Positions 30,457 through 64,000 of a DNA stretch of 64,000 nt are shown one piece after another. Source of the stretch: Planctomycetota bacterium (GTDB lineage Bacteria; Planctomycetota; MHYJ01; JACPRB01). The notes under the pieces are model-generated. The model did not search any database, was not told where the DNA came from, and saw nothing but the letters and a program-made list of their open reading frames with translations. The translations under genes were made by a program, and so were the position numbers. Every line of letters begins with the position of its first letter. The stretch's first letter is position 1. Where the stretch lies: positions 64-64,063 of the forward strand of contig JACQVR010000094.1 of assembly GCA_016209705.1 (NCBI GenBank). Direction: 5' to 3'.

Positions 30457-30539
30457 TATGGTATGTTACATTCCATGTTACGTTTTATTCTCAAAACTTA
30501 TTGTAACGTTACAATATATTTTCAAAATATTTCGTAACA
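30457..30539. promoter_or_regulatory. AT-rich operator cluster A. It holds a perfect palindrome TTGTAACGTTACAA (30501-30514) and arrayed GTTAC/GTAAC half-sites separated by TTTTCAAAA-type cores.
   Basis: An ~85-bp island of >75% AT in a 68% GC genome, immediately upstream of the mscL-like gene and the DUF21-CBS-EIIA gene. The same motif grammar recurs at 34980-35012 and 39185-39280. Confidence 0.5.
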
Positions 30540-34045: not shown

Positions 34046-34990
34046 ATGGCCAGAAAGACGCGATTCCTGAACATCCTCGTCACCGGCGGCGCCGGATTCA
34101 TCGGATCCAACCTCGTCCAGGCGATCCAGGCCCGCTGGCCGTCGGCCCTGCTGACCGTGGTCGACGACTTTCGCTCGGGACACTTCAAGAATCTCACCGG
34201 CTTCCGCGGAGACGTGGTGGCAGCGGACATCGGAGCCTGGGAGTCGTCCGAGAAATACGACTGCATCTTCCATCTGGCCTCGATCACCGACACCACGATC
34301 AGCGATCAATTCCGGATGGTGCGGGACAATGTGGAAGGCTTCCGCAGCGTCTTGAGGATGGCCCGCAGAATGAAGGCGATCGTGGTGTACGCCTCCAGCG
34401 CCGCGACGTACGGGCAGGCGAACGAGCGCGCGTTGGAAACGTCTCCCGCCCTTCCGACGACCGCGTACGCGTTTTCGAAGGTCGTCCTGGATCACCTGGC
34501 GGAGCGCGCGCGCTGGGACGGAATGCGCGTCGAGGGGGTTCGGTACTTCAACGTCTACGGCCCCCACGAGGCGCACAAGGGGGCGGCGGCCAGCATGATC
34601 TATCAGCTCGCCGCGCAGATGCGGAAGGACCGCCGGCCGCGAATCTTCAAGCACGGCGAGCAGCGGCGCGATTTCATCTTCGTGGACGACGCCGTGCATG
34701 CCACGCTCCTGGCGGCCGAGCGTGGAAAGAACGCCGTCTACAACGTCGGCACCGGACGCGCCCGGTCGTTCAACGAAGTCATCGACGCGCTGAACTCGGC
34801 CCTGGGAACGCGCCTGGAGCCGGAGTACTTCGACAATCCCTACGATTTCTATCAGGACTACACCGAAGCCAACATCGCCCGGGCCCGCGCCGACCTCGGC
34901 TTCACCGCCGCCTTCGGCCTCGAAGACGGAGTGCGCGAATACCTCCAGCGCCTCGGATGGACGCGCGCCGCCCATCGCCTGTTACAATAA
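34046..34990 (+). CDS. NAD-dependent epimerase/dehydratase (HldD/ADP-heptose-6-epimerase-like SDR).
   Basis: Rossmann motif ILVTGGAGFIGSNL is present, with YAFSK in the catalytic YxxxK position. Confidence 0.8.
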   Translation: MARKTRFLNILVTGGAGFIGSNLVQAIQARWPSALLTVVDDFRSGHFKNLTGFRGDVVAADIGAWESSEKYDCIFHLASITDTTISDQFRMVRDNVEGFRSVLRMARRMKAIVVYASSAATYGQANERALETSPALPTTAYAFSKVVLDHLAERARWDGMRVEGVRYFNVYGPHEAHKGAAASMIYQLAAQMRKDRRPRIFKHGEQRRDFIFVDDAVHATLLAAERGKNAVYNVGTGRARSFNEVIDALNSALGTRLEPEYFDNPYDFYQDYTEANIARARADLGFTAAFGLEDGVREYLQRLGWTRAAHRLLQ

Positions 34991-35012
34991 GTTTTGAAAA
35001 TTATTTGTAACA
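34980..35012. promoter_or_regulatory. AT-rich operator B. It is one GTTACA-N22-TGTAACA dyad with a TTTTGAAAA core, overlapping the epimerase stop and directly upstream of selenoprotein candidate 3.
   Basis: Sequence is TGTTACAATAAGTTTTGAAAATTATTTGTAACA. It follows the same grammar as operator clusters A and C. Confidence 0.45.
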
Positions 35013-39184: not shown

Positions 39185-39280
39185 TGTTACAAAACATTTT
39201 CAAAATATATCGTAACGTTACAATATATTTTGAAAACTATTTGTAACTGTTACATAAAGTTCTCAAAACTTATTGTAACG
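39185..39280. promoter_or_regulatory. AT-rich operator cluster C. Three consecutive GTTAC-N19/20-GTAAC dyads including TCGTAACGTTACAA, in the divergent region between the E1 fusion gene and trpD.
   Basis: Sequence is TGTTACAAAACATTTTCAAAATATATCGTAACGTTACAATATATTTTGAAAACTATTTGTAACTGTTACATAAAGTTCTCAAAACTTATTGTAACG. A TTGACA -35 box follows at 39282. Confidence 0.5.
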
Positions 39281-43759: not shown

Positions 43760-44197
43760 ATGTTTGAGATGCGTGGCAACGGGCGAGAAGAGAAGCCTCC
43801 CTCGTGGGCTCGAAGTCTTTCCGCCGAAATGCGCGCTTACCTCCGGCACGGCTCCGAGGAAGCGGCAAGGAATCGGAAGGAGGCGCAAAAGGATCGGCAG
43901 GAAATGCGGGCCTATTTCCAGAAAGTAATCGAGAAGGCCGATGCGGATCGGCGGGAAACGCGGGAGTACTTCCAGAAAGTGATCGCGAATGCTGAAGCGG
44001 ACCGGAAGGAAATGCGGGCCTTCTTCCAAACCGTGGCCGCGCAGGCGGCGGACGACCGCGCGGACTTCAAGGCGGATCGGGCCAACTTCGCCAAGCTCAC
44101 CGCGATGGTCGTTAAGATCGGCAACGAGATCATCAGGCGGCTCGAAGATATCCAGCGAACGCTCTACATCCAAGGCAACGGGCGTAGGAATAGGTAA
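43760..44197 (+). CDS. Hypothetical repeat protein. It has 3 copies of an ~19-aa EMRAYFQKVIxxAxADRxE unit plus a C-terminal module DFKADRANFAKL...IQGNGRRNR that is duplicated at 50410-50549.
   Basis: Internal periodicity is clear. The C-terminal 46 aa are ~80% identical (about 75% at DNA level) to the tail of ORF 50247..50549. Confidence 0.5.
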   Translation: MFEMRGNGREEKPPSWARSLSAEMRAYLRHGSEEAARNRKEAQKDRQEMRAYFQKVIEKADADRRETREYFQKVIANAEADRKEMRAFFQTVAAQAADDRADFKADRANFAKLTAMVVKIGNEIIRRLEDIQRTLYIQGNGRRNR

Positions 44198-45037: not shown

Positions 45038-45440
45038 GATTCGTTCGCTCCCCATTCCGAGCTTTCGACCTTTCGGTTGACGCAATCACGAATCGCCAGG
45101 CGAACGCGCTTCAGGAGCGCGTACGTCGCCTGCACGGTCTTCCCGATCGATCCGGCGATTTGCGGCACGTCCAGGGCCGAACCGTAGCGCAAGGTGATGA
45201 TCTTGCGGGAAAGACCGCGAAGGGACTTCATTCACTCGTCCAGCGCCGCGCACCGTCGTTCGATGTAGGAGGTTTCATCGACTTCCTTCGCGGCTTCGGC
45301 GAGTTGATCGAGCACTTCGGGATCGACGGTGACGAAACCGGCGCGACTCTTCTTGAAGAAATCCAGGATGGAGCGCCGGGCGATTTCGCGGATCCACGCA
45401 CGGAAATTGAGGATCGGCCCCTGGCGTTCCCATTGAGCAT
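45034..45440 (-). pseudogene. ECF sigma factor remnant. It is N-terminally truncated, and region 2 and region 4 are separated by an in-frame TGA.
   Basis: The frame reads ...WERQGPILNFRAWIREIARRSILDFFKK...AALDE-TGA-MKSLRGLSRKIITLRYGSALDVPQIAG.... There is no start codon or region 2.1/2.2 between it and the upstream gene end at 45508. Confidence 0.5.
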
Positions 45441-50250: not shown

Positions 50251-50549
50251 GAGGGGGCATAGGATACTCCAGCTACGATATACGGCTGCGTGCGGTCAGC
50301 GCAGTGCAGCGAGGTACGGGGATCTGCGTCGTGGCGGAGGCTTTTGGCACAAATCGCTCGACGCTCCATCGGTGGATACAGCGTTATCAATGGGAAAATG
50401 AAGCCGATCGAGAAGATTTCAAAAAAGATCGGGCCAACTTTGCCAAGCTCATGGCCGTGGCGCTCAGGACCGGGAACGAGATCATCCGCCGGCTCGACAA
50501 CATCCAGCACACCCTCCGCATCCAAGGCAATGGGCGCAAGAATCGATAG
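50247..50549 (+). mobile_element. IS630-family transposase N-terminal HTH fragment fused to a copy of the DRANFAKL...IQGNGRKNR module.
   Basis: YDIRLRAVSAVQRGTGICVVAEAFGTNRSTLHRWIQRY resembles the IS630/Tc1 HTH. No DDE domain follows. Instead the tail matches the C-terminus of ORF 43760..44197. Confidence 0.45.
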
Positions 50550-53773: not shown

Positions 53774-53881
53774 AATTTCGAGGGGAACGGATGGCGTGAG
53801 CAAAAGGATCCATCGGTGTTTCGAGACTGTAGCATAAATACCGGGCTTATCCGTGCCTCGAGCGAACTGAATGAAGGGTGC

Positions 53882-54620
53882 CTAGCGTTTTGTGGCGGCT
53901 ATCGGCTTGGGATAAAGCGGAGAGGCGTCGCTGGTGATTTCCTTCAGCTTCAGCTCGCGACTCTGCAGGATCAACTGGAAGCGTTGGAGAAACCGTTGGA
54001 TGTCCTCGTGAGTCGGGTCATGGTCAACAACCTCGTACAAAAGCCGTTTGAAGTTGCGGTTGTCCACGATCGACAGCACGCAGAAAGGCCCGTCATAGAG
54101 TTCGTCTATGGCAATGTATCCGGAGAATCCACGAAGGGCCCAGTCCAGGTAGTCAGCCTCGATGCGAGCTTCGCCTTTTTTTCCCTGACGTCTCAACCCA
54201 GTTCTGGATCGTGGCGAATGGCACAAAGACACGGTGGTCACGCCAAAGATGCCAGGAGGCCGCCCGATACGGCAGACTGTCTTCGACGACCAATCGGACA
54301 GCGGCCGATACAACGCGGTGGGTGTAGCGGCGGCCGGGTAAGGCGAGGTCTGACATGTCGGCGTTGAAATACTTTCTGCAGCGAGAGCAAAAATGCTGAG
54401 AGTAGGTAAGCTGAATGTCGACGGGGCGTTCCGACCGCGGGTCCCCCAGGTCGTGGAGCACTCGCCCCATCCGCTTCTCGCGATAACATCTGTGAGCACA
54501 TTCGGGGCAGGGTCGACGTTTGTAGTCTCGGCTCCTCTGAATAGCCTTGGGTTTCGGAAGGTCTTCAACTCGCGTTATCCCTTCTGTCCGGTCCGGCCGA
54601 TTTTCCCCCGGTGCAGCCAT
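53882..54620 (-). pseudogene. ISL3-family transposase remnant (N-terminal zinc-finger/HTH region plus the start of the DDE domain), frameshifted and C-terminally truncated.
   Basis: Frame 1 reads RPCPECAHRCYREKRMGRVLHDLGD...RFCSRCRKYF. Frame 2 reads ...YIAIDELYDGPFCVLSIVDNRNFKRLLYEVVDHD. Only about 245 of the expected 400-450 aa are present. Confidence 0.6.
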
Positions 54621-54671
54621 TCTTTCTCTCTCCAGGCAAGAAACCGCCTCTCCCCTGGAGAAATCGGCTCA

Positions 54672-54719
54672 AAACGACGAATAGCTGAAGATTAATCCCG
54701 GTTTCTATGCTACACACTC
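54672..54719. repeat. 48-bp exact direct repeat, copy A (AAACGACGAATAGCTGAAGATTAATCCCGGTTTCTATGCTACACACTC).
   Basis: It is identical to 56016-56063. It lies at the outer edge of the ISL3 remnant and forms the C-terminal tail of the truncated sigma gene. Confidence 0.6.
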
Positions 54720-54720
54720 C

Positions 54721-55203
54721 GTTTGTTCGTCCGTTTCTCCTACCTGGTCCTGCCGAATTTCGGGAGCGCCGAAGGGTGATGACGCGCCGGTACGCCCCGC
54801 CCAGCTCCTCCAAGTACTCGTCGAGCGCTTGGCGCTGCCGGTCGAGATCGCCGGCCGCCTCGACTTCCAGGGCGACTTTCTCCATCCGTTCGAGGGCCCC
54901 CGGAGGCACGGCCATGGCGCCGCGCCTGGCGCGTTCGAGGTGCTCGAGCAGGCGGTGGCGCGAGATTTCGCGCACCCACGCCAGGAAGTTCGTGCCCGGC
55001 TTGTACTGCGCGGCGCTCCGGAGCGCGACGAGCGACACCTCCTGGAGCAGATCTTCCGCGTCGTGCGAGTTCCATACCGCGGCCAGGAGATAGGCGTAGA
55101 GGTCCGCCCGATGCTTGATGAGCAGCATCGGGACGACGTCGGAATCGCCAGCGCACCCTGCGCCCACGTCGGGCTGATCGTCCGGTTTCTGCATCCTCTT
55201 CAT
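54721..55203 (-). pseudogene. Sigma-70/ECF-type sigma factor truncated within region 4 by the 48-bp repeat.
   Basis: Region 2 (DLLQEVSLVALRSAAQYKPGTNFLAWVREISRHRL) and the start of region 4 (YRRVITLRR) are present. The reading frame then enters repeat-derived sequence (VCSIETGINLQLFVV). Confidence 0.5.
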
Positions 55204-55571
55204 AAGTCCTCGGCGAGCCGAATTAGGAAGCGCTTTCTCGAAAATTTTCTGTAAGGTTGACTACAAATAGAACCATGAATTCTATCACATCAAAAACCGC
55301 GCCGCGGAAGAGGGAGAAGAAGTCTTTTTCGCGACCTCCTCAAGCTTCCATTTCCCGGATGCGAGGATATAATTCTTCCCGATAGTGGGGAGGGCCATGC
55401 ATCGGAGTCGAGGGGTTTCACGGTGCGCCGATTGAACCGGGCCGAATTCCCGGCTCGCGCGCCGGACGACGCGACGGAATCCGATCGACCTCTCCCTTCC
55501 TCGAGCTAGAAGCTTCCCCGCCTGACGCGGAGCGGTTCCGGGTCAAGGGGACGGAGGGTCTTTGGAGGAGA

Positions 55572-55883
55572 ATGGACATGCGAAAATTGGCGCTCGTCGT
55601 GGTGGCGGCGGTCTTCCTCGGAGCGACCGTCGGATGCGGCGGACCGTTCACGGTCAGCCGCAGCGTCAACGACTGGTACAACCAGAAGTACGGGGAGACG
55701 CCCTGGCTGTATGGGAACATGGTGTCCAGCGCCGTTTACGGGCTGGCCATGGGCCTGTCCTGGACGGCGGACATGCTGGTCGTGAACACCTATCACTTCT
55801 GGGTGAAGGACGCGCAGCCGATCGGCGACGGCAAGGGAACGACGTTCGAGCACAAGAATCCGACCTCGGGCAAGAAGCGGTAG
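55572..55883 (+). CDS. Small hypothetical lipoprotein.
   Basis: Lipobox FLGATVGC is present in a 103-aa ORF with RBS GGAGGAG. A strong terminator follows. Confidence 0.55.
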   Translation: MDMRKLALVVVAAVFLGATVGCGGPFTVSRSVNDWYNQKYGETPWLYGNMVSSAVYGLAMGLSWTADMLVVNTYHFWVKDAQPIGDGKGTTFEHKNPTSGKKR

Positions 55884-55901
55884 GCCCGGCAAAGTCTGCG
55901 G

Positions 55902-55940
55902 AAAACCCCCGGCGCCCGCCGGGGGTTTTTCTTTTTACCG
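55902..55940 (+). terminator. Rho-independent (bidirectional) terminator.
   Basis: AAAACCCCCGGCGCCCGCCGGGGGTTTTTCTTTTT has an 8-9 bp GC stem flanked by an A-tract and a T-tract. Confidence 0.8.
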
Positions 55941-56015
55941 CGCGATGAACGACTGGACATCGCCTGTGGCGATGAGATCCCCGGAAATGCCCACGTTTCC
56001 CGCCGATCCCGTGGG

Positions 56016-56063
56016 AAACGACGAATAGCTGAAGATTAATCCCGGTTTCTATGCTACACACTC
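56016..56063. repeat. 48-bp exact direct repeat, copy B. It supplies the last 4 codons and the stop of the M48 protease gene.
   Basis: It is identical to 54672-54719. The minus-strand reading GAG TGT GTA GCA TAG within the repeat ends ORF 56049..57419. Confidence 0.6.
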
Positions 56064-57419
56064 AACAACGTCGATCTTTTGCCCGCAGCGGTCGCAGCGG
56101 ACGAAAGGCGCCTTGAACTTCGGGCTCAAGTGCTTCACGGCGCCGCAGGCGCACTTGAACGACTCCCAACCGTGGGACGACCTCTCGTAGCGAAGGATGG
56201 GAACGGACGGCGCTTCGGGGGCGGGGACGGGTTGCGCGGAGGGAACCGCGCGGGTGCGGCCGCAGCGAGGGCACGGGATTCCCTCCCTTTTCATCTCGGC
56301 GGGAACTTTGATTTTCACCCCGCAGGCGCAGGTCAGCAGCACCAGCCCGTTCAACCGGCCCAGGAGGTCGTGCACTTCTTCGGCGCGCCGAACCGCCTCT
56401 TCGCGGGACTCCCGATCCACGGAGGGAGCGCGCACCGGGACGGGCGTGTCCTTGGACAGCGTCGTTTCATCGAGGCAGGGACGTTTCCCGCCTCGGACGC
56501 GCCGGAAGGCCTCCTCGTAGGCGGAATACCCGGCGCCGGCCATCCCGCGAAGGATCTTCACGCGCTCCTCCGTGGGCGGATGGGTGGAAAAAAGCTGGAA
56601 GGATGCCAGGGATTGCAAAGGGTTGATGATGTACATCGGCGCCAGAACCCGGCTGGCCCCGCCTACCGCACTCGCGCCCGCCGCGATCTTCTCCAGCGCG
56701 GATGCCAATCCTTCCGGATAGCGCGTGAATCGCGCGGCGCACGCGTCCGCCAGATGCTCCCGCCGGCGGGAACACGCCAAATACAAAAGGCGGGCGAAGA
56801 ACGGAGCCAGAATCGCCGCCGCCAGCGCGGCCAGGAAGACCGCCGCGTGGCCGCCTCGCGAGGAGCGCCGGCGTCCGCCTCCCCACCACGCCACTCGCAG
56901 GACCGCCTCCGACAGAAGCACGATCGCGCCCAGCATCACCCCGGCCAAGGTCATGAACGACGAGTCTCGATTGCGGATATGTCCGATCTCGTGCCCGATC
57001 ACTCCCTGCAATTCGTCCCGACTGAGCCGCTCCAGCAAACCCGACGTCACGGCCACGCTGCGGCGCCGGCCCCGTTCCACGGCGAACGCGTTCGGTCCGG
57101 GGTCCCAGATCAGGTAGACGTCCGGAGGGCCGCCCAGTCCGGACGCGATCGACATCTCTTCCACGATGTTCCAGAGCTGGGGCGCGTCCTCCTTCCCGAT
57201 GCGCTGCGCCCCGGCCGTCATCAGCAGCACTCGATCGCCTTCGATCGTCGCTCCGAACCACAGCACGAGCCACAGGCCGGACGCCGCCAGCATTCCGAGC
57301 CACCCGGCCTCCGGAGCCACCGCGGAACCCACCAGAAAACCGAAGCCAAGAAGGATCGCTCCCATGCATCCGACAAGCACCCAGGAGCGGCGGCGGTTTC
57401 GACGGATGGCGGCCCACAT
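56049..57419 (-). CDS. M48 family (HtpX-like) zinc metalloprotease with a C-terminal double zinc-ribbon domain.
   Basis: The HEIGHIRNRD (HExxH) motif is present along with TM segments. The C-terminus reads CACGVKIKV...CPRCG...CACG...CDRCGQ. The antisense ORF 56079..57467 is artefact. Confidence 0.8.
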   Translation of the reverse strand: MWAAIRRNRRRSWVLVGCMGAILLGFGFLVGSAVAPEAGWLGMLAASGLWLVLWFGATIEGDRVLLMTAGAQRIGKEDAPQLWNIVEEMSIASGLGGPPDVYLIWDPGPNAFAVERGRRRSVAVTSGLLERLSRDELQGVIGHEIGHIRNRDSSFMTLAGVMLGAIVLLSEAVLRVAWWGGGRRRSSRGGHAAVFLAALAAAILAPFFARLLYLACSRRREHLADACAARFTRYPEGLASALEKIAAGASAVGGASRVLAPMYIINPLQSLASFQLFSTHPPTEERVKILRGMAGAGYSAYEEAFRRVRGGKRPCLDETTLSKDTPVPVRAPSVDRESREEAVRRAEEVHDLLGRLNGLVLLTCACGVKIKVPAEMKREGIPCPRCGRTRAVPSAQPVPAPEAPSVPILRYERSSHGWESFKCACGAVKHLSPKFKAPFVRCDRCGQKIDVVECVA

Positions 57420-57421
57420 AA

Positions 57422-57463
57422 GAGTCCCGAGTCCCGAGTCGCGAGTCCTGAGTCACGAGTCGC
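57422..57463. repeat. Tandem heptanucleotide repeat (GAGTCNC) x6 in the lemA-M48 intergenic region.
   Basis: Units are GAGTCCC GAGTCCC GAGTCGC GAGTCCT GAGTCAC GAGTCGC. The unit length is not a multiple of 3, and every unit contains GANTC. Confidence 0.7.
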
Positions 57464-61031: not shown

Positions 61032-63383
61032 ATGGGCGGCACGCGGACCCGTGCGGAAGCGGCGGGGATTTTCCTGCTCAGCGCCGCCTGTCTGTTCTTC
61101 GAGCTCCACGCGTTCCGATTCTTCACGCTTTCCCAATGGCACCATTTTGGAGCGCTCGTCGTTTCGCTGGCGCTCTTCGGCGGCGCGGCGGCGGGTGTCG
61201 CCCTCGCGCTGTCGAGGCGCCTTCGGCGGGCGGATCCCGGGACCGCTGCGGCGACATGCGCCGTCGCCATGGCGGTCTCCGCGTGGGCTGGCCTGCACGC
61301 CGCTTCCTGGATCCCTTTCCGTCCGGTTCGCGCCTCGGTGGGACCGGAAGAACTGGCGGCGGTGGCGGGATGGTATCTATGTTTCGGCGTCCCGATGTTC
61401 TTCGCCTCGTTGGGCGTGCTGTACTTCCTGCTCAGGCGTCCCGGGAACGTGGGGACGATCTATGCGTCCAATCTTCTCGGCGGGGCGGCGGGCGTAGCGT
61501 CGGCCCTTTGGCTGGAAAGCGCCCTCGACGGGCAGGAAGCGGCGGCAACGGCCGTTTTGGGCCTCTGCGCCGCCACGTGCTTCGTTCATCTTTCCCCGTG
61601 GCGGATCGGCGGCGCGTCCGTTTTCTTGCTGCTCGCCGCCTGGATGCGTCCCGAGATCCCGGTATCCGAATTCAAGGCCCTGGCGAGCCTGCCGAATACG
61701 CTGGGAGCGCGCAGCGTTCATTCTGGTCGTGCCGAAGGACATCACGTGGCGTTGTTGAAGGTTCCCACGTTTCGGCGCGCGCCGGGACTCTCGCTGGCCT
61801 ATCGTGGAAGGGTTCCGACCGGTCTGACCGTCGTGGTGGACGGCGATCGTCCCGATGTGCTTCTCGAACCGCCCGTGGATCCGGATCTGCCGGCCCATCT
61901 GCCGGGAGCCGTCGGCCACGAGCTGGCCCCCGAAGGGCGAGCTTTGATCCTGGACGCGGCGGGGAATCTGCCGGTCCTGACCGCCAACCGATATGGGAGA
62001 TCTTCGCTGGTGCATCTCCCTCCCGAAATCGCGGGCGTTTGGTTCGACGTTCAGGGCTTGGATGCCCGCCGATATTTCCCGGGGGCGACGGTGGTGACGG
62101 TTCCTCCGAGAACGCTGCTGCGGGCCCAACCCGACGGCTCGGTTGCGTATGTGGAGATCGCCTTGCGTGACGGCGCGGCCACCATGACGGCCGCTCTGGG
62201 ACAGCCGACCGAAGGCTATCTGTTCACGGTGGAAGCGTGGAGGGAAATGCTGAGGTGTCTGGCTCCGGACGGCCTCTTGTGCGTGACGCGATGGCTCGAA
62301 TTTCCTCCGCGCGAAAGCTTGCGGCTGGCCGCGACCGCCGTCGAGGCGTTGAAAGAAGGCGCTCCGGCGGAGCGCTGCCTCGTGGCGTTTCGGTCGCTCC
62401 AGACGATCACCTTTCTAATCAGGCCTCGAGGATTCGATCCAGCTTCGCGCCGACGGTTGGCCGAAGCGCTGCGAAGGCGATCCTACGAATTGATCTATCC
62501 TGCGGGAGGAGGCGGAGTTCATGCCGCCGCCCTCGATGCGTTGCTGCGCGATCCGGAGAAGTTGTACGCTTCCTATCCCTTCTACATACGTCCCGCGACG
62601 GATGACCGGCCCTTCCCATGGTTTTTCCTCAAGCCGGGACGACTGGGCGAGTTGCGCGAACGGGCGGACATCGGCTGGCGCCCCCTGCTGGACGGGGGGT
62701 TTCTTTTGGGAGCCGCGGCGGTGCAGGCGGCCTTCATCGGCTTGATCTTGATCGCGCTTCCCTTTCTGCGAGCGCGCGATCGGCCTCCCGTATCGTCGGC
62801 GGTCGCGCCCGGAATCTACTTCTTCTTGATCGGCCTCGGATTTCTATTCGTTGAAATCCCTCTCGCGCAAATCTTGACGCGATCGGCGCCTTCGGCCGCG
62901 CATGCGTTCGGACTCGTGATCGCGACCATGTTCCTGGGCGCCGGCACCGGTTCCTACTTGTCCGGACGTCTGAGACTGGATCGTGTGGCCGTCGTCGTGG
63001 CCGCCGCCGCGCTGGTGATCGGTGCGCAGTGTGCCTTGTTGCCGCGGATCGGGACGTGGACGCTGGTTCCGGGAGGGTGGTGGATGGTTGGATCCCTTCT
63101 GGGCGCGCTTCCCTCCGTGGCCATGGGCATGGCCATGCCGGGAGGATTTCGCTGGGCGGGGCCGCTCGGCTCTTGGGGACCTTCCTGGGGATGGGCGGTC
63201 AATGGATGCGCCTCGGTGGTTTCGCCGCTTTTGGCGTCGATCCTGGCACTCGGCGTCGGGTTCCGTTTTGTGCTCGGCGTGGCGGCGGTCCTATACGTTA
63301 CCGCCGGAGGAATGCTTTATTTCAAGTCCCGAGTCGTGAGTCCGGAGTCCCGAGTCGAAGACGAGCTATCGCCTTCTTCATGA
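61032..63383 (+). CDS. Polytopic membrane protein with a spermidine/spermine-synthase-like (aminopropyltransferase) domain.
   Basis: N-terminal TM helices are followed by a central methyltransferase-like fold (LLCVTRWLEFPPRESL) and C-terminal TM helices. The extreme C-terminus overlaps GAGTC heptamer repeats and may terminate earlier. Confidence 0.55.
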   Translation: MGGTRTRAEAAGIFLLSAACLFFELHAFRFFTLSQWHHFGALVVSLALFGGAAAGVALALSRRLRRADPGTAAATCAVAMAVSAWAGLHAASWIPFRPVRASVGPEELAAVAGWYLCFGVPMFFASLGVLYFLLRRPGNVGTIYASNLLGGAAGVASALWLESALDGQEAAATAVLGLCAATCFVHLSPWRIGGASVFLLLAAWMRPEIPVSEFKALASLPNTLGARSVHSGRAEGHHVALLKVPTFRRAPGLSLAYRGRVPTGLTVVVDGDRPDVLLEPPVDPDLPAHLPGAVGHELAPEGRALILDAAGNLPVLTANRYGRSSLVHLPPEIAGVWFDVQGLDARRYFPGATVVTVPPRTLLRAQPDGSVAYVEIALRDGAATMTAALGQPTEGYLFTVEAWREMLRCLAPDGLLCVTRWLEFPPRESLRLAATAVEALKEGAPAERCLVAFRSLQTITFLIRPRGFDPASRRRLAEALRRRSYELIYPAGGGGVHAAALDALLRDPEKLYASYPFYIRPATDDRPFPWFFLKPGRLGELRERADIGWRPLLDGGFLLGAAAVQAAFIGLILIALPFLRARDRPPVSSAVAPGIYFFLIGLGFLFVEIPLAQILTRSAPSAAHAFGLVIATMFLGAGTGSYLSGRLRLDRVAVVVAAAALVIGAQCALLPRIGTWTLVPGGWWMVGSLLGALPSVAMGMAMPGGFRWAGPLGSWGPSWGWAVNGCASVVSPLLASILALGVGFRFVLGVAAVLYVTAGGMLYFKSRVVSPESRVEDELSPSS

Positions 63384-63410
63384 CCGGACTCATGACTCAT
63401 GACTCGTGAC
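63324..63410. repeat. GAGTCNN heptamer repeats in inverted arrangement (4 units forward at 63324-63358, 3 units reverse at 63386-63410) between convergent genes.
   Basis: Forward units are GAGTCGT GAGTCCG GAGTCCC GAGTCGA. Reverse units are GACTCAT GACTCAT GACTC. Together they can form a long imperfect hairpin. The unit matches the 57422-57463 array. Confidence 0.6.
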
Positions 63411-63417
63411 GCAAGAC

Positions 63418-64000
63418 TTATTTTGCTCGTTCGATCTTTCCCGTCATCGGCACGAACCGCACGCCGCCGTGGTCTTCCTGGATCAGTTCGCTTCCATTTT
63501 TCCTGATGCGAAACAAAGTCTGTCCGAAAAAAGGTTCGCCGATCGGAGCGACCAGGCGGCCGCCATCGGCCAATTGATCCAGGAGCGGCGGCGGCACGTG
63601 TCCCGCCGCGGCGGTGATGAGAATGGCCTGGAACGGCGCGGCCTCGGGCCACCCCTCGTATCCGTCGGCGGCTTTCGTGCGGACTTTGCTGTAGCCGAGT
63701 CGATCCAGCCGTTCGCGAGCTTCTTTGGCCAGCTCCGGAATGATCTCGATGGAATACACTTCGGCTCCGCACTCGGCGAGGACCGCAGCTTGATACCCGG
63801 AGCCGGTTCCGATCTCCAGCACCCGATCGCCCGGCTTGACAGCGGCCAGCTCCGTCATGAGCGCCACAATGTAGGGTTGGCTGATCGTCTGTCCGTATCC
63901 GATGGGCAGAGGACCGTCGTCGAACGCGCGGTGGCGCTGATCGGGAGGGACGAATTCCGGCCGGGGCGTCTTCCGCAGGGCGCGCAGGACCGAGACGACG
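63418..64000 (-). CDS. pcm: Protein-L-isoaspartate O-methyltransferase (N-terminus beyond the window end).
   Basis: SAM motif VLEIGTGSGYQAAVLA is present. The C-terminus GVRFVPMTG...* is at 63418, and the frame remains open to position 64000. Confidence 0.8.
   Translation of the reverse strand, partial: VVSVLRALRKTPRPEFVPPDQRHRAFDDGPLPIGYGQTISQPYIVALMTELAAVKPGDRVLEIGTGSGYQAAVLAECGAEVYSIEIIPELAKEARERLDRLGYSKVRTKAADGYEGWPEAAPFQAILITAAAGHVPPPLLDQLADGGRLVAPIGEPFFGQTLFRIRKNGSELIQEDHGGVRFVPMTGKIERAK

What the first reader, a model, noticed from the sequence alone, without database searches (positions are those of the whole stretch)
53882..56063. Mobile-element scar: ISL3 transposase remnant plus 48-bp exact direct repeats that terminate two different genes
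A frameshifted, truncated ISL3 transposase (53882-54620) is followed by the 48-bp sequence AAACGACGAATAGCTGAAGATTAATCCCGGTTTCTATGCTACACACTC (54672-54719). This sequence reappears exactly at 56016-56063. Copy A forms the aberrant C-terminal tail of a sigma factor truncated in region 4. Copy B supplies the last four codons and stop of the otherwise intact M48 protease. The 1.3 kb between them holds the sigma remnant and a small lipoprotein gene. This is consistent with an IS terminal sequence or an att-like core left by insertion/excision events that remodelled gene ends.
Basis: seen in the sequence. Interest (0 to 1): 0.55.

Follow-up and report, generated by a model that had tools for sequence, protein, structure and literature searches.

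The report
Decayed ISL3-like element plus solo end
The 48-bp repeat is the outermost 48 bases of a small jumping gene (an ISL3-like insertion sequence), present once on a crippled 897-bp copy that cut off a sigma-factor gene and once as a lone stub capping a protease gene: ordinary mobile-element debris.

Summary
In detail: the 48-mer occurs exactly twice (54672-54719, 56016-56063), with none expected by chance. It is positions 1-48 of the transposase-proximal end of an insertion sequence. Its outer 27 nt form an imperfect inverted repeat (22/27) with 53823-53849, bounding an 897-bp element. Intact relatives are about 1520 bp. They carry the same GAGACTGTAGC...GCTACAGTCTC termini 98-100 bp upstream of the transposase start. 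Two of them, on long contigs, show 8-bp target duplications. Their full-length transposases pass Pfam DDE_Tnp_ISL3 but fall far below NCBIfam's ISL3 cut-off, so this is a divergent ISL3-like lineage. The window copy has both ends but lost about 625 bp internally. Its 'frameshift' at a G/A run is shared by every close relative examined, so it is not a lesion. Copy A abuts a sigma gene lacking region 4.2. Copy B is a solo end that supplies ECVA-stop to an otherwise intact M48 protease. Neither copy has a target duplication. I read this as two insertions of one IS lineage followed by deletions. An att-like core is not supported. The locus is ordinary. Caveats: the source is a metagenome-assembled contig, and no empty-site relative was found.

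The parts
53823..54719 (-). Internally deleted, non-autonomous copy (897 bp) of an ISL3-like insertion sequence; both termini are present.
   Evidence: Terminal inverted repeats (I2). Colinear without gaps with the intact 1522-bp relative L002 for its first 819 nt (76.6% identity), after which only the terminal ~25 nt align. Intact relatives are 1518-1523 bp.
54672..54719 (-). 48-mer copy A: IS positions 1-48 (transposase-proximal end), contiguous with the rest of the IS. The outer edge at 54719 abuts the sigma remnant.
54693..54719 (-). Transposase-proximal terminal inverted repeat (GAGTGTGTAGCATAGAAACCGGGATTA).
   Evidence: 22/27 complementary to 53823-53849. Matches the family terminus GAGACTGTAGC..CCGGG of L001, L002 and L005 at the same distance (98-100 bp) from the ATG.
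53823..53849 (+). Transposase-distal terminal inverted repeat (GAGACTGTAGCATAAATACCGGGCTTA).
   Evidence: I2, I3; identical terminal 11-mer to relatives. Only three IR-like sites exist in the 64 kb.
54153..54620 (-). ORF A (155 aa): zinc-finger (CxxC...CxxC) plus helix-turn-helix N-terminal part of the transposase.
   Evidence: 82.6% identical to L002 ORF A. About 40 homologues of 149-186 aa stop at the same place.
54176..54185 (-). G3A7 run where ORF A must shift +1 into ORF B; a conserved recoding site in the clade.
   Evidence: window G3A7, L002 G3A8, L005 G5A6, L004 G6A6; G6A6.
53882..54184 (-). ORF B remnant: the start of the DDE domain up to just after the second catalytic-type D (ITSDASPLYPKPIAA). 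The rest is deleted.
   Evidence: 80% identical to L002 fused transposase residues 146-240. Full-length relatives are 465-466 aa.
56016..56063 (-). 48-mer copy B: a solo transposase-proximal IS end. The outer edge at 56063 abuts the M48 coding sequence; the inner edge joins non-IS DNA.
   Evidence: The junction is confirmed in an independent Logan contig.
54769..55203 (-). ECF-type sigma factor remnant (region 2 through the start of region 4). Region 4.2 (about 45 aa) is missing. The annotated ORF runs on through the IS leader to 54565.
   Evidence: Pfam Sigma70_r2 only. Homology to P0242, P0243 and P0245 ends at ...RRVITLR. Full-length relatives are 166-183 aa.
54720..54768 (-). 49 nt between the end of sigma homology and the IS terminus; origin unresolved (degenerate sigma sequence or foreign DNA).
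55572..55883 (+). DUF3332 small lipoprotein gene, apparently intact.
   Evidence: Pfam PF11810, 28.1 bits against a cut-off of 25.
55900..55931 (.). G+C-rich hairpin terminator between the DUF3332 gene and the M48 end.
55936..56015 (-). Possible former 3' end of M48 (26 codons in frame once copy B is removed, ending in TAA next to the terminator). Uncertain.
   Evidence: GC1/2/3 of 0.62/0.58/0.77 against 0.68/0.54/0.82 for M48. Homologue tails, however, are only 0-15 aa.
56064..57419 (-). M48 (HtpX-like) metalloprotease with C-terminal zinc ribbons. The native coding sequence is intact up to ...CGQKIDVV.
   Evidence: Pfam Peptidase_M48, 1.7e-31. 44 relatives align to residues 1 to ~452.

Best explanation
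The locus carries the debris of one lineage of a divergent ISL3-like insertion sequence. Intact relatives are about 1520 bp, have 27-bp imperfect terminal inverted repeats, and make an 8-bp target duplication.

Shown:
- The 48-mer is the first 48 bp of the IS at its transposase-proximal end.
- At site A it is still attached to the IS.
- That IS has lost about 625 bp of its DDE domain and cannot move on its own.
- Its proximal end is joined to a sigma gene lacking region 4.2.
- Its distal end lies about 70-115 bp upstream of an aldo/keto reductase gene.
- There is no target duplication, no remainder of the sigma gene, and no anti-sigma-like partner nearby.
- At site B only the 48-bp stub remains, joined at the exact IS terminus to the last codons of the M48 gene. 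In that frame it supplies ECVA-stop.

Inferred:
- The same IS lineage integrated twice, in the same orientation, 1.3 kb apart, each time in a locally A/T-rich stretch.
- The site B copy was then deleted from position 49 through its distal end, plus at most a little flanking DNA.
- The site A copy suffered an internal deletion and a flank-changing event. That event was either an adjacent deletion or recombination with another copy.

Likely consequences: a dead sigma gene, and an M48 protease that probably still works with a replaced short tail.
For: - The 48-mer is exact and non-random.
- The IR pairing bounds an 897-bp element, and only three IR-like sites exist in the window.
- Relatives L001-L009 and L056-L065 share the terminal motif GAG(A/T)CTGTAGC at both ends. 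The proximal end lies 98-100 bp upstream of the ATG, as in the window.
- L004 is a contig that begins and ends exactly at these termini.
- 8-bp target duplications are present at L003 (CCAAATCA) and L065 (GCGTTTTC).
- Both 48-mer copies end outwardly at exactly the IS terminus with different flanks. That is the signature of transposase-made junctions.
- The internal deletion is mapped against L002.
- Sigma homology stops at 54769, and region 4.2 is found nowhere else in the window.
- The sigma relative L066 has an overlapping downstream anti-sigma-like gene that is absent from the window.
- M48 is complete relative to 44 + 21 homologues.
- The M48/stub junction is seen in an independent assembly.
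Against: - Neither copy has a target duplication: flanks are ACGTTGTT / CCCACGGG at B and AACAAACG / GAAACACC at A. The deletions are therefore inferred, not observed.
- No intact copy with an identical 48-mer was found. The window has none, two metagenome scans were empty (though that collection is demonstrably incomplete), and ORF A is not on record elsewhere.
- The proximal terminus GAGTGTG differs at positions 4-5 from the family consensus GAGACTG.
- Removing copy B leaves M48 in frame for 26 codons to a TAA next to the terminator, with coding-like GC3. That fits a clean 48-bp insertion better than a messy deletion.
- The source is a short-read MAG. The link between the two flanks of copy A runs through 819 bp of potentially multicopy repeat and could be chimeric. 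Short metagenome contigs of relatives also lack target duplications.
Confidence: 0.62

Rival explanations
1. One insertion plus a transposase-mediated rearrangement. A single IS copy produced both junctions. For example, its proximal end attacked a second nearby target (one-ended, aberrant or intramolecular transposition), or it underwent abortive or near-precise excision that left a precise 48-bp, duplication-less footprint in the M48 3' end.
For: Both copies are 100% identical and share the unusual GAGTGTG terminus. They are only 1.3 kb apart in the same orientation. Removing copy B restores a 26-codon in-frame continuation to a TAA adjacent to the terminator, with coding-like codon-position GC. 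L020 and L026 have tails beginning PTG and PAG, like the continuation PTGSAG. No target duplication is present at either site.
Against: The 48-mer has no internal inverted-repeat symmetry and contains nothing from the distal end, unlike Tn10-type near-precise excision remnants (from my own knowledge). ISL3 elements are thought to use copy-out-paste-in through circles (10.1101/2023.06.07.543989), which does not leave footprints. A 26-27-aa M48 tail would be longer than in any of about 37 homologues examined, whose tails are 0-15 aa. An open frame of 26 codons is not unusual in 63% G+C DNA. No significant flank-to-flank homology exists.
Confidence: 0.15
2. Partly an assembly artefact. The two sides of copy A (sigma flank and reductase flank) belong to different IS copies and were joined by the assembler through the repeat. 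On this reading the missing target duplication and the missing sigma 3' end are not biological at this locus.
For: The source is a MAG contig. Five short metagenome contigs spanning one identical 1521-bp relative all lack target duplications, whereas copies on long contigs have them. The 819-bp proximal part exceeds short-read length. Logan contigs break at the repeat.
Against: This cannot explain copy B. A 48-bp stretch is spanned by single reads, and a false join would still need IS-end sequence next to CCCACGGG. The junctions sigma|IS and M48|stub are each local and real. The deletion junction lies only 78 bp from the reductase flank. Each individual feature remains a genuine IS scar whatever the long-range order.
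Confidence: 0.15
3. The 48-mer is an att-like core or a recombination site of some other element (integrative element, integron-like cassette), and the 1.3-kb sigma/lipoprotein segment is a cassette inserted by site-specific recombination.
For: Two identical direct repeats flank a 1.3-kb segment. This is formally the product of integrating a circle carrying one repeat.
Against: The repeat's outer 27 nt are the IS terminal inverted repeat, and its outer edge is exactly the IS terminus shared by many relatives. No integrase, tRNA or cassette features are present. The segment has genomic G+C (0.628 against 0.631). It carries a truncated gene rather than a functional cassette.
Confidence: 0.03

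Closest known systems
ISL3 family insertion sequences (e.g. IS31831, ISPpu12, IS1411)
   Same: N-terminal zinc finger plus HTH followed by a DDE domain that passes Pfam DDE_Tnp_ISL3 in full-length relatives. There is also a weak hit to the DesA/ISL3 alpha-bundle tail. Size is about 1.5 kb, with ~27-bp imperfect terminal IRs and an 8-bp target duplication (an 8-bp DR example for ISL3 is in PMC9782665). Insertion flanks are A/T-rich.
   Different: Scores are far below NCBIfam's ISL3 equivalog cut-off, and IS66 and IS256 models score almost as well. Termini start GAGACTGTAGC rather than the GG(C/G)TCTT-type ends I recall for classical ISL3. The transposase is split into OrfA and OrfB with a conserved +1 shift, whereas classical ISL3 has a single ORF (from my own knowledge). 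No match in 72,556 plasmids.
Solo inverted repeats / IS remnants left by deletion (generic IS decay)
   Same: Copy B is one IS end with an exact terminus on one side and an arbitrary breakpoint on the other. Copy A is an internally deleted, non-autonomous IS.
   Different: Nothing substantive. The only oddity is that the stub is 48 bp (16 codons) and leaves the downstream frame open.
Tn10/IS10 'nearly precise excision' remnants
   Same: A ~50-bp piece of the element is left at the old insertion site, with most of the element removed.
   Different: Tn10 remnants contain both ends as a small palindrome and arise between short direct repeats in the IRs (from my own knowledge). Here only the proximal end is present, and no such repeats were found.
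IS1 / IS3-family OrfA-OrfAB recoding
   Same: An upstream DNA-binding ORF and a downstream catalytic ORF are joined at a homopolymeric A-rich run. The ORF A-only product is a plausible regulator.
   Different: The required shift is +1 (or -2, or loss of one nucleotide by transcriptional slippage), not the -1 ribosomal frameshift of IS1 and IS3.

Membership tests
ISL3 family (IS) | DDE transposase matching the ISL3 catalytic-domain model | tested here: inconclusive
   The window remnant has no Pfam hit and scores 28.7 bits on NCBIfam ISL3 (cut-off 180), with IS66 scoring slightly higher. Full-length relatives (80-83% identical to the remnant) pass Pfam PF01610 (29.9 and 31.4 bits against a gathering score of 23). 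They fail the NCBIfam equivalog (44.9 and 60.1 against 180).
ISL3 family (IS) | N-terminal zinc-finger/HTH DNA-binding region | tested here: met
   CPECAH...CSRC motifs are present in ORF A. The NCBIfam ISL3 N-terminal region aligns to residues 31-114.
ISL3 family (IS) | Terminal inverted repeats of about 15-40 bp | tested here: met
   27-nt IR, 22/27 complementary. The same IRs bound relatives of 1518-1523 bp.
ISL3 family (IS) | 8-bp target-site duplication | tested here: met
   Met for relatives on long contigs: L003 CCAAATCA and L065 GCGTTTTC. Not met for either copy in the window, which is attributed to later rearrangement or to assembly.
ISL3 family (IS) | Single transposase ORF | tested here: not met
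   ORF A and ORF B are separated by a +1 shift in the window and in all close relatives. Only more distant relatives (L001, P0021) are in one frame.
ISL3 family (IS) | Copy-out-paste-in transposition via circular intermediates | not testable with these tools
   Literature only (10.1101/2023.06.07.543989).
Autonomous (active) IS copy | Complete DDE catalytic domain | tested here: not met
   The protein ends at residue 245 of ~465. The region carrying the third catalytic residue and the SNAVERGN motif is deleted.
att site / integrative element | Repeat independent of IS ends, with an associated integrase or tRNA | tested here: not met
   The repeat is the IS terminus. No integrase-type ORF was found among the Pfam-scanned neighbours.
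MITE | Short non-coding element with both IRs and a target duplication, in multiple copies | tested here: not met
   Copy B has one end only. The 897-bp copy still carries coding sequence. No further copies exist in the window or the metagenome scan.

The most novel reading that the evidence does not exclude
Copy B is a precise, duplication-less 48-bp footprint of the IS proximal end, placed in frame into an otherwise untouched M48 3' end. It would be the product of an abortive one-ended transposition or a near-precise excision pathway not described for ISL3-type (copy-out-paste-in) elements. In that case this IS lineage can leave defined 'end stubs' that re-terminate host genes.
Probability: 0.1. 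Interest if true: 0.4.

Novelty: new member of a known kind. Interest (0 to 1): 0.15.

Why it matters
For this locus it matters little. It explains why a sigma factor is annotated as a 212-aa 'hypothetical protein' with a nonsense tail. It also explains why the M48 protease ends in ECVA, and it warns that contig order across the IS in this MAG may be unreliable. More generally, the relatives gathered here define a very large IS clade (more than 6000 protein clusters) that curated models recognise poorly. The clade is ISL3-like, with clear termini, an 8-bp duplication and a conserved two-ORF, +1-shift organisation. That description could improve IS annotation in Planctomycetota and other environmental genomes.

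Tried and rejected
1. Clean in-frame insertion of copy B. The 26-codon continuation and its GC3 looked promising. However, 16 + 21 homologues have unconserved tails of only 0-15 aa, so this is neither proven nor excluded and is kept as a minority rival.
2. Empty-site search with a degenerate M48 3'-end pattern in JGI metagenomes: no hit.
3. Search for further copies or solo ends of the lineage with a 26-base IS-end pattern: no hit. The pattern should have matched JGI contig L002, so the null is weak.
4. Exact-protein look-ups of ORF A, the sigma ORF and the DUF3332 protein: none on record.
5. Synteny. LemA-M48 is conserved in all relatives but nothing downstream is, so the ancestral arrangement cannot be read from relatives of 56% identity or less.
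6. Rescuing sigma region 4.2 in another frame of the 49 nt next to the IS. Only a weak resemblance was found (PEI..VGET..QT against P.IA.AVG.TVQAT), and there was no tblastn or DNA alignment support.
7. Microhomology or slipped-mispairing explanations for the position 48/49 breakpoint, and hidden homology among the five flanks: nothing significant.
8. -1 ribosomal frameshifting. The A AAA AAG heptamer is in phase with ORF B, not ORF A, so the needed shift is +1.
9. Plasmid database search with a full-length transposase for an annotated name: no match.
Full report
**Observation**

The 48-mer is present exactly twice, at 54672-54719 and 56016-56063 on the + strand. There are no further matches at up to three mismatches and none in 100 shuffles. 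The sequence on either side differs immediately, so the repeat is exactly 48 bp.
- a two-piece transposase on the minus strand (ORF A 54620..54153, continuation to 53882);
- a sigma ORF at 55203..54565 with only Sigma70_r2;
- a DUF3332 lipoprotein gene at 55572..55883;
- an M48 peptidase at 57419..56049.

**What the 48-mer is**

Its outer 27 nt (54693-54719) are an imperfect inverted repeat (22/27) of 53823-53849 (I2). This bounds an 897-bp element with the transposase inside. Only these three IR-like sites exist in the 64 kb.

The fused 245-aa transposase has more than 6000 homologous protein clusters. I fetched the DNA around several of them.
- L002 (1522 bp), L003/L004 (1519 and 1518 bp), L056-L060 (1521 bp) and L065 (1523 bp) are complete elements. 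All begin GAG(A/T)CTGTAGC and end with its complement.
- L004 is a contig that starts and stops exactly at those termini.
- In every case the proximal terminus lies 98-100 bp upstream of the transposase ATG. In the window the outer end of the 48-mer is 99 bp from the ATG.
- L002's end, GAGACTGTAGCGTAAAAACCGGGATTCCCCTTCAGC, is plainly the same sequence as the window's GAGTGTGTAGCATAGAAACCGGGATTAATCTTCAGC.

So the 48-mer is positions 1-48 of the transposase-proximal end of this IS. On long contigs the element is flanked by 8-bp target duplications: L003 CCAAATCA and L065 GCGTTTTC.

**Family**

The remnant itself hits no Pfam model. It gives only sub-threshold NCBIfam hits: IS66 32 bits and ISL3 29 bits, against cut-offs of 180. 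Full-length transposases rebuilt from L002 and L004 (465 and 466 aa) pass Pfam DDE_Tnp_ISL3 (29.9 and 31.4 bits against 23). They remain far below NCBIfam's ISL3 equivalog cut-off (45 and 60 against 180), with IS66 and IS256 close behind. With the zinc finger/HTH N-terminus, ~27-bp IRs and an 8-bp duplication, I call it a divergent ISL3-like lineage. An 8-bp direct repeat for an ISL3-family element is reported in PMC9782665. No plasmid record carries a relative.

**State of the copy at site A**

It is colinear without gaps with L002 for 819 nt (76.6% identity). After that, only the terminal ~25 nt align. The protein stops after ...ITSDASPLYPKPIAA, just past the second aspartate motif, where relatives continue for about 220 residues. 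So about 625 bp were lost internally while both ends were kept. The copy is non-autonomous.

The 'frameshift' is a different matter. ORF A must shift +1 into ORF B at a G/A run: window G3A7, L002 G3A8, L005 G5A6, L004 and L056 G6A6. In those relatives ORF B stays open for about 300 codons. Forty short homologues at 65-82% identity all stop just after the motif WVE..GKK. More distant relatives (L001, P0021) are in one frame. The shift is therefore a clade-wide feature, most likely programmed recoding. It cannot be -1 frameshifting, because the A AAA AAG heptamer is in phase with ORF B, not ORF A. It is not evidence of decay.

**Effect on the neighbouring genes**

*Sigma.* Homology to the three nearest relatives (49-57% identity, 166-183 aa) ends at ...RRVITLR, window 54769. 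That is about 45 residues short of their C-termini, so region 4.2 is missing.
- The next 49 nt up to the IS terminus are not recognisably sigma in any frame.
- The ORF then runs through the 48-mer and the IS leader to a stop at 54565. This gives the 212-aa 'hypothetical protein' HY716_12255 of an NCBI Planctomycetes MAG, which identifies the source.
- No region 4.2 remnant lies beyond the IS or elsewhere in the window.
- The relative L066 has an overlapping downstream anti-sigma-like gene that the window lacks.

*M48.* The protein aligns with 44 genomic relatives and the 21 closest database homologues up to the last zinc-ribbon motif ...C..C.R.I.V. Those proteins then end after 0-15 unconserved residues. 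In the window the native sequence stops at ...KIDVV and the stub adds ECVA*. The protease is therefore essentially intact. LemA-M48 is a conserved pair in all relatives, and nothing downstream is conserved.

**Is it real?**

A Logan assembly of run SRR12113390 contains the M48 gene (99.8% identical over 1871 bp) ending ...IDVVECVA*. Its contig stops exactly 30 nt into the 48-mer, which is the behaviour of a k=31 unitig entering a repeat. A 48-bp stub is spanned by single reads, so site B is not an assembly product.

Site A is less secure. The link between its two flanks runs through 819 bp of a possibly multicopy repeat. Short metagenome contigs of a relative (L056-L060) all lack target duplications while long contigs have them. 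The absence of a duplication at site A (AACAAACG | GAAACACC) may therefore be biological or a chimeric join.

**History and mechanism**

Both 48-mer copies end outwardly at exactly the IS terminus, next to different host DNA that is locally A/T-rich, like the flanks of relatives. Junctions at the exact terminus are what a transposase makes, whereas the inner breakpoint of copy B (position 48/49) is arbitrary.

The simplest account is two integrations of one IS lineage in the same orientation. The site B copy was then deleted from position 49 through its distal end. The site A copy lost an internal segment and changed one flank, by adjacent deletion or by recombination with another copy. ISL3 elements are thought to move by copy-out-paste-in through circles (10.1101/2023.06.07.543989), which leaves no excision footprint. 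This favours secondary deletion over excision.

One oddity remains. Removing copy B leaves M48 in frame for 26 codons (PTGSAGNVGISGDLIATGDVQSFIAR) to a TAA directly before the hairpin terminator at 55900-55931. Its codon-position GC resembles that of M48. Two relatives have tails starting PTG or PAG. That would make copy B a clean 48-bp footprint. But such a tail would be longer than any homologue's, and 26 open codons are unremarkable at 63% G+C. I keep it as a minority reading. I found no microhomology or flank-to-flank similarity that would explain the breakpoint.

An att-type site is excluded, because the repeat is the IS end.

**Verdict**

The corrections are:
- the 48-mer belongs to the element, which spans 53823-54719;
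- the element is internally deleted, not end-truncated;
- the frameshift is a family trait;
- 'ISL3' holds only in the loose sense.

This is ordinary IS decay in a MAG, of low interest. The side result is a large, poorly modelled ISL3-like clade with a conserved OrfA/OrfB +1 shift, which is more interesting than the scar itself.

**Limits**

No intact copy with an identical 48-mer and no empty-site allele could be found. Two metagenome scans were empty, but the second should have matched JGI contig L002, so that collection is incomplete. Exact-protein look-ups were also empty.

Noticed in passing
window 54174-54185; L002, L004, L005, L056-L060; proteins P0045-P0120: In this large ISL3-like clade the transposase is split into OrfA (zinc finger/HTH, 149-186 aa) and OrfB (DDE, ~300 aa). 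They are separated by a +1 shift at a G/A homopolymer run of varying composition (G3A7, G3A8, G5A6, G6A6). OrfB stays open, which suggests programmed recoding (loss of one nucleotide by transcriptional slippage, or +1 frameshifting) rather than decay. More distant relatives are in one frame.
   Followed up: partly
window 54647-54663 (minus strand); L002 and L005 leaders: The IS leader carries a conserved inverted repeat, CTCCAGG...CCTGGAG, ending just before the GGAGAG/ATG of the transposase. It keeps pairing in relatives (CTTCAGG/CCTGGAG in L005). It probably masks the ribosome-binding site against read-through from outside, such as from the truncated sigma gene.
   Followed up: partly
window 30476-30539, 34980-35012, 39185-39280: Six copies, in three clusters, of a 33-nt A/T-rich palindromic unit TGTTAC-N21-GTAACA in an otherwise 63% G+C region. 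They look like operator sites for one regulator controlling several promoters.
   Followed up: no
window 57422-57461, 63325-63356, 63387-63418: Heptamer tandem arrays: GAGTCCC x5.7, AGTCCCG x4.6 and GACTCAT x4.6. The first fills the LemA-M48 intergenic space and ends 2 nt before the M48 start codon. Function unknown.
   Followed up: partly
window 45058-45432 (minus strand): A second, paralogous sigma-factor remnant (43-49% identical to the same relatives). It retains region 4.2 but has an in-frame stop (AALDE*MKSL) and lacks the N-terminal region 2.1/2.2, so it appears to be another pseudogene.
   Followed up: partly
window 43891-44046; 44053-44196 vs 50405-50548: Three tandem 54-nt (18-codon) repeats, and a 144-nt segment repeated 6.3 kb away at 75% identity. 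These are probably repeated protein modules in paralogous genes.
   Followed up: no
L005-L009 (five samples): A 1205-bp internally deleted derivative of a related IS, with both termini intact, recurs with identical flanks in contigs from several unrelated samples (ENA, Logan, JGI). Deletion derivatives of this clade therefore persist and are widespread.
   Followed up: no
Metagenome-contig collection: A pattern that matches JGI contig 3300045950|Ga0484001_0057145 (L002) returned no hit from the JGI metagenome scan. That collection does not hold every JGI contig reachable through the protein tools, so nulls from it are weak.
   Followed up: no
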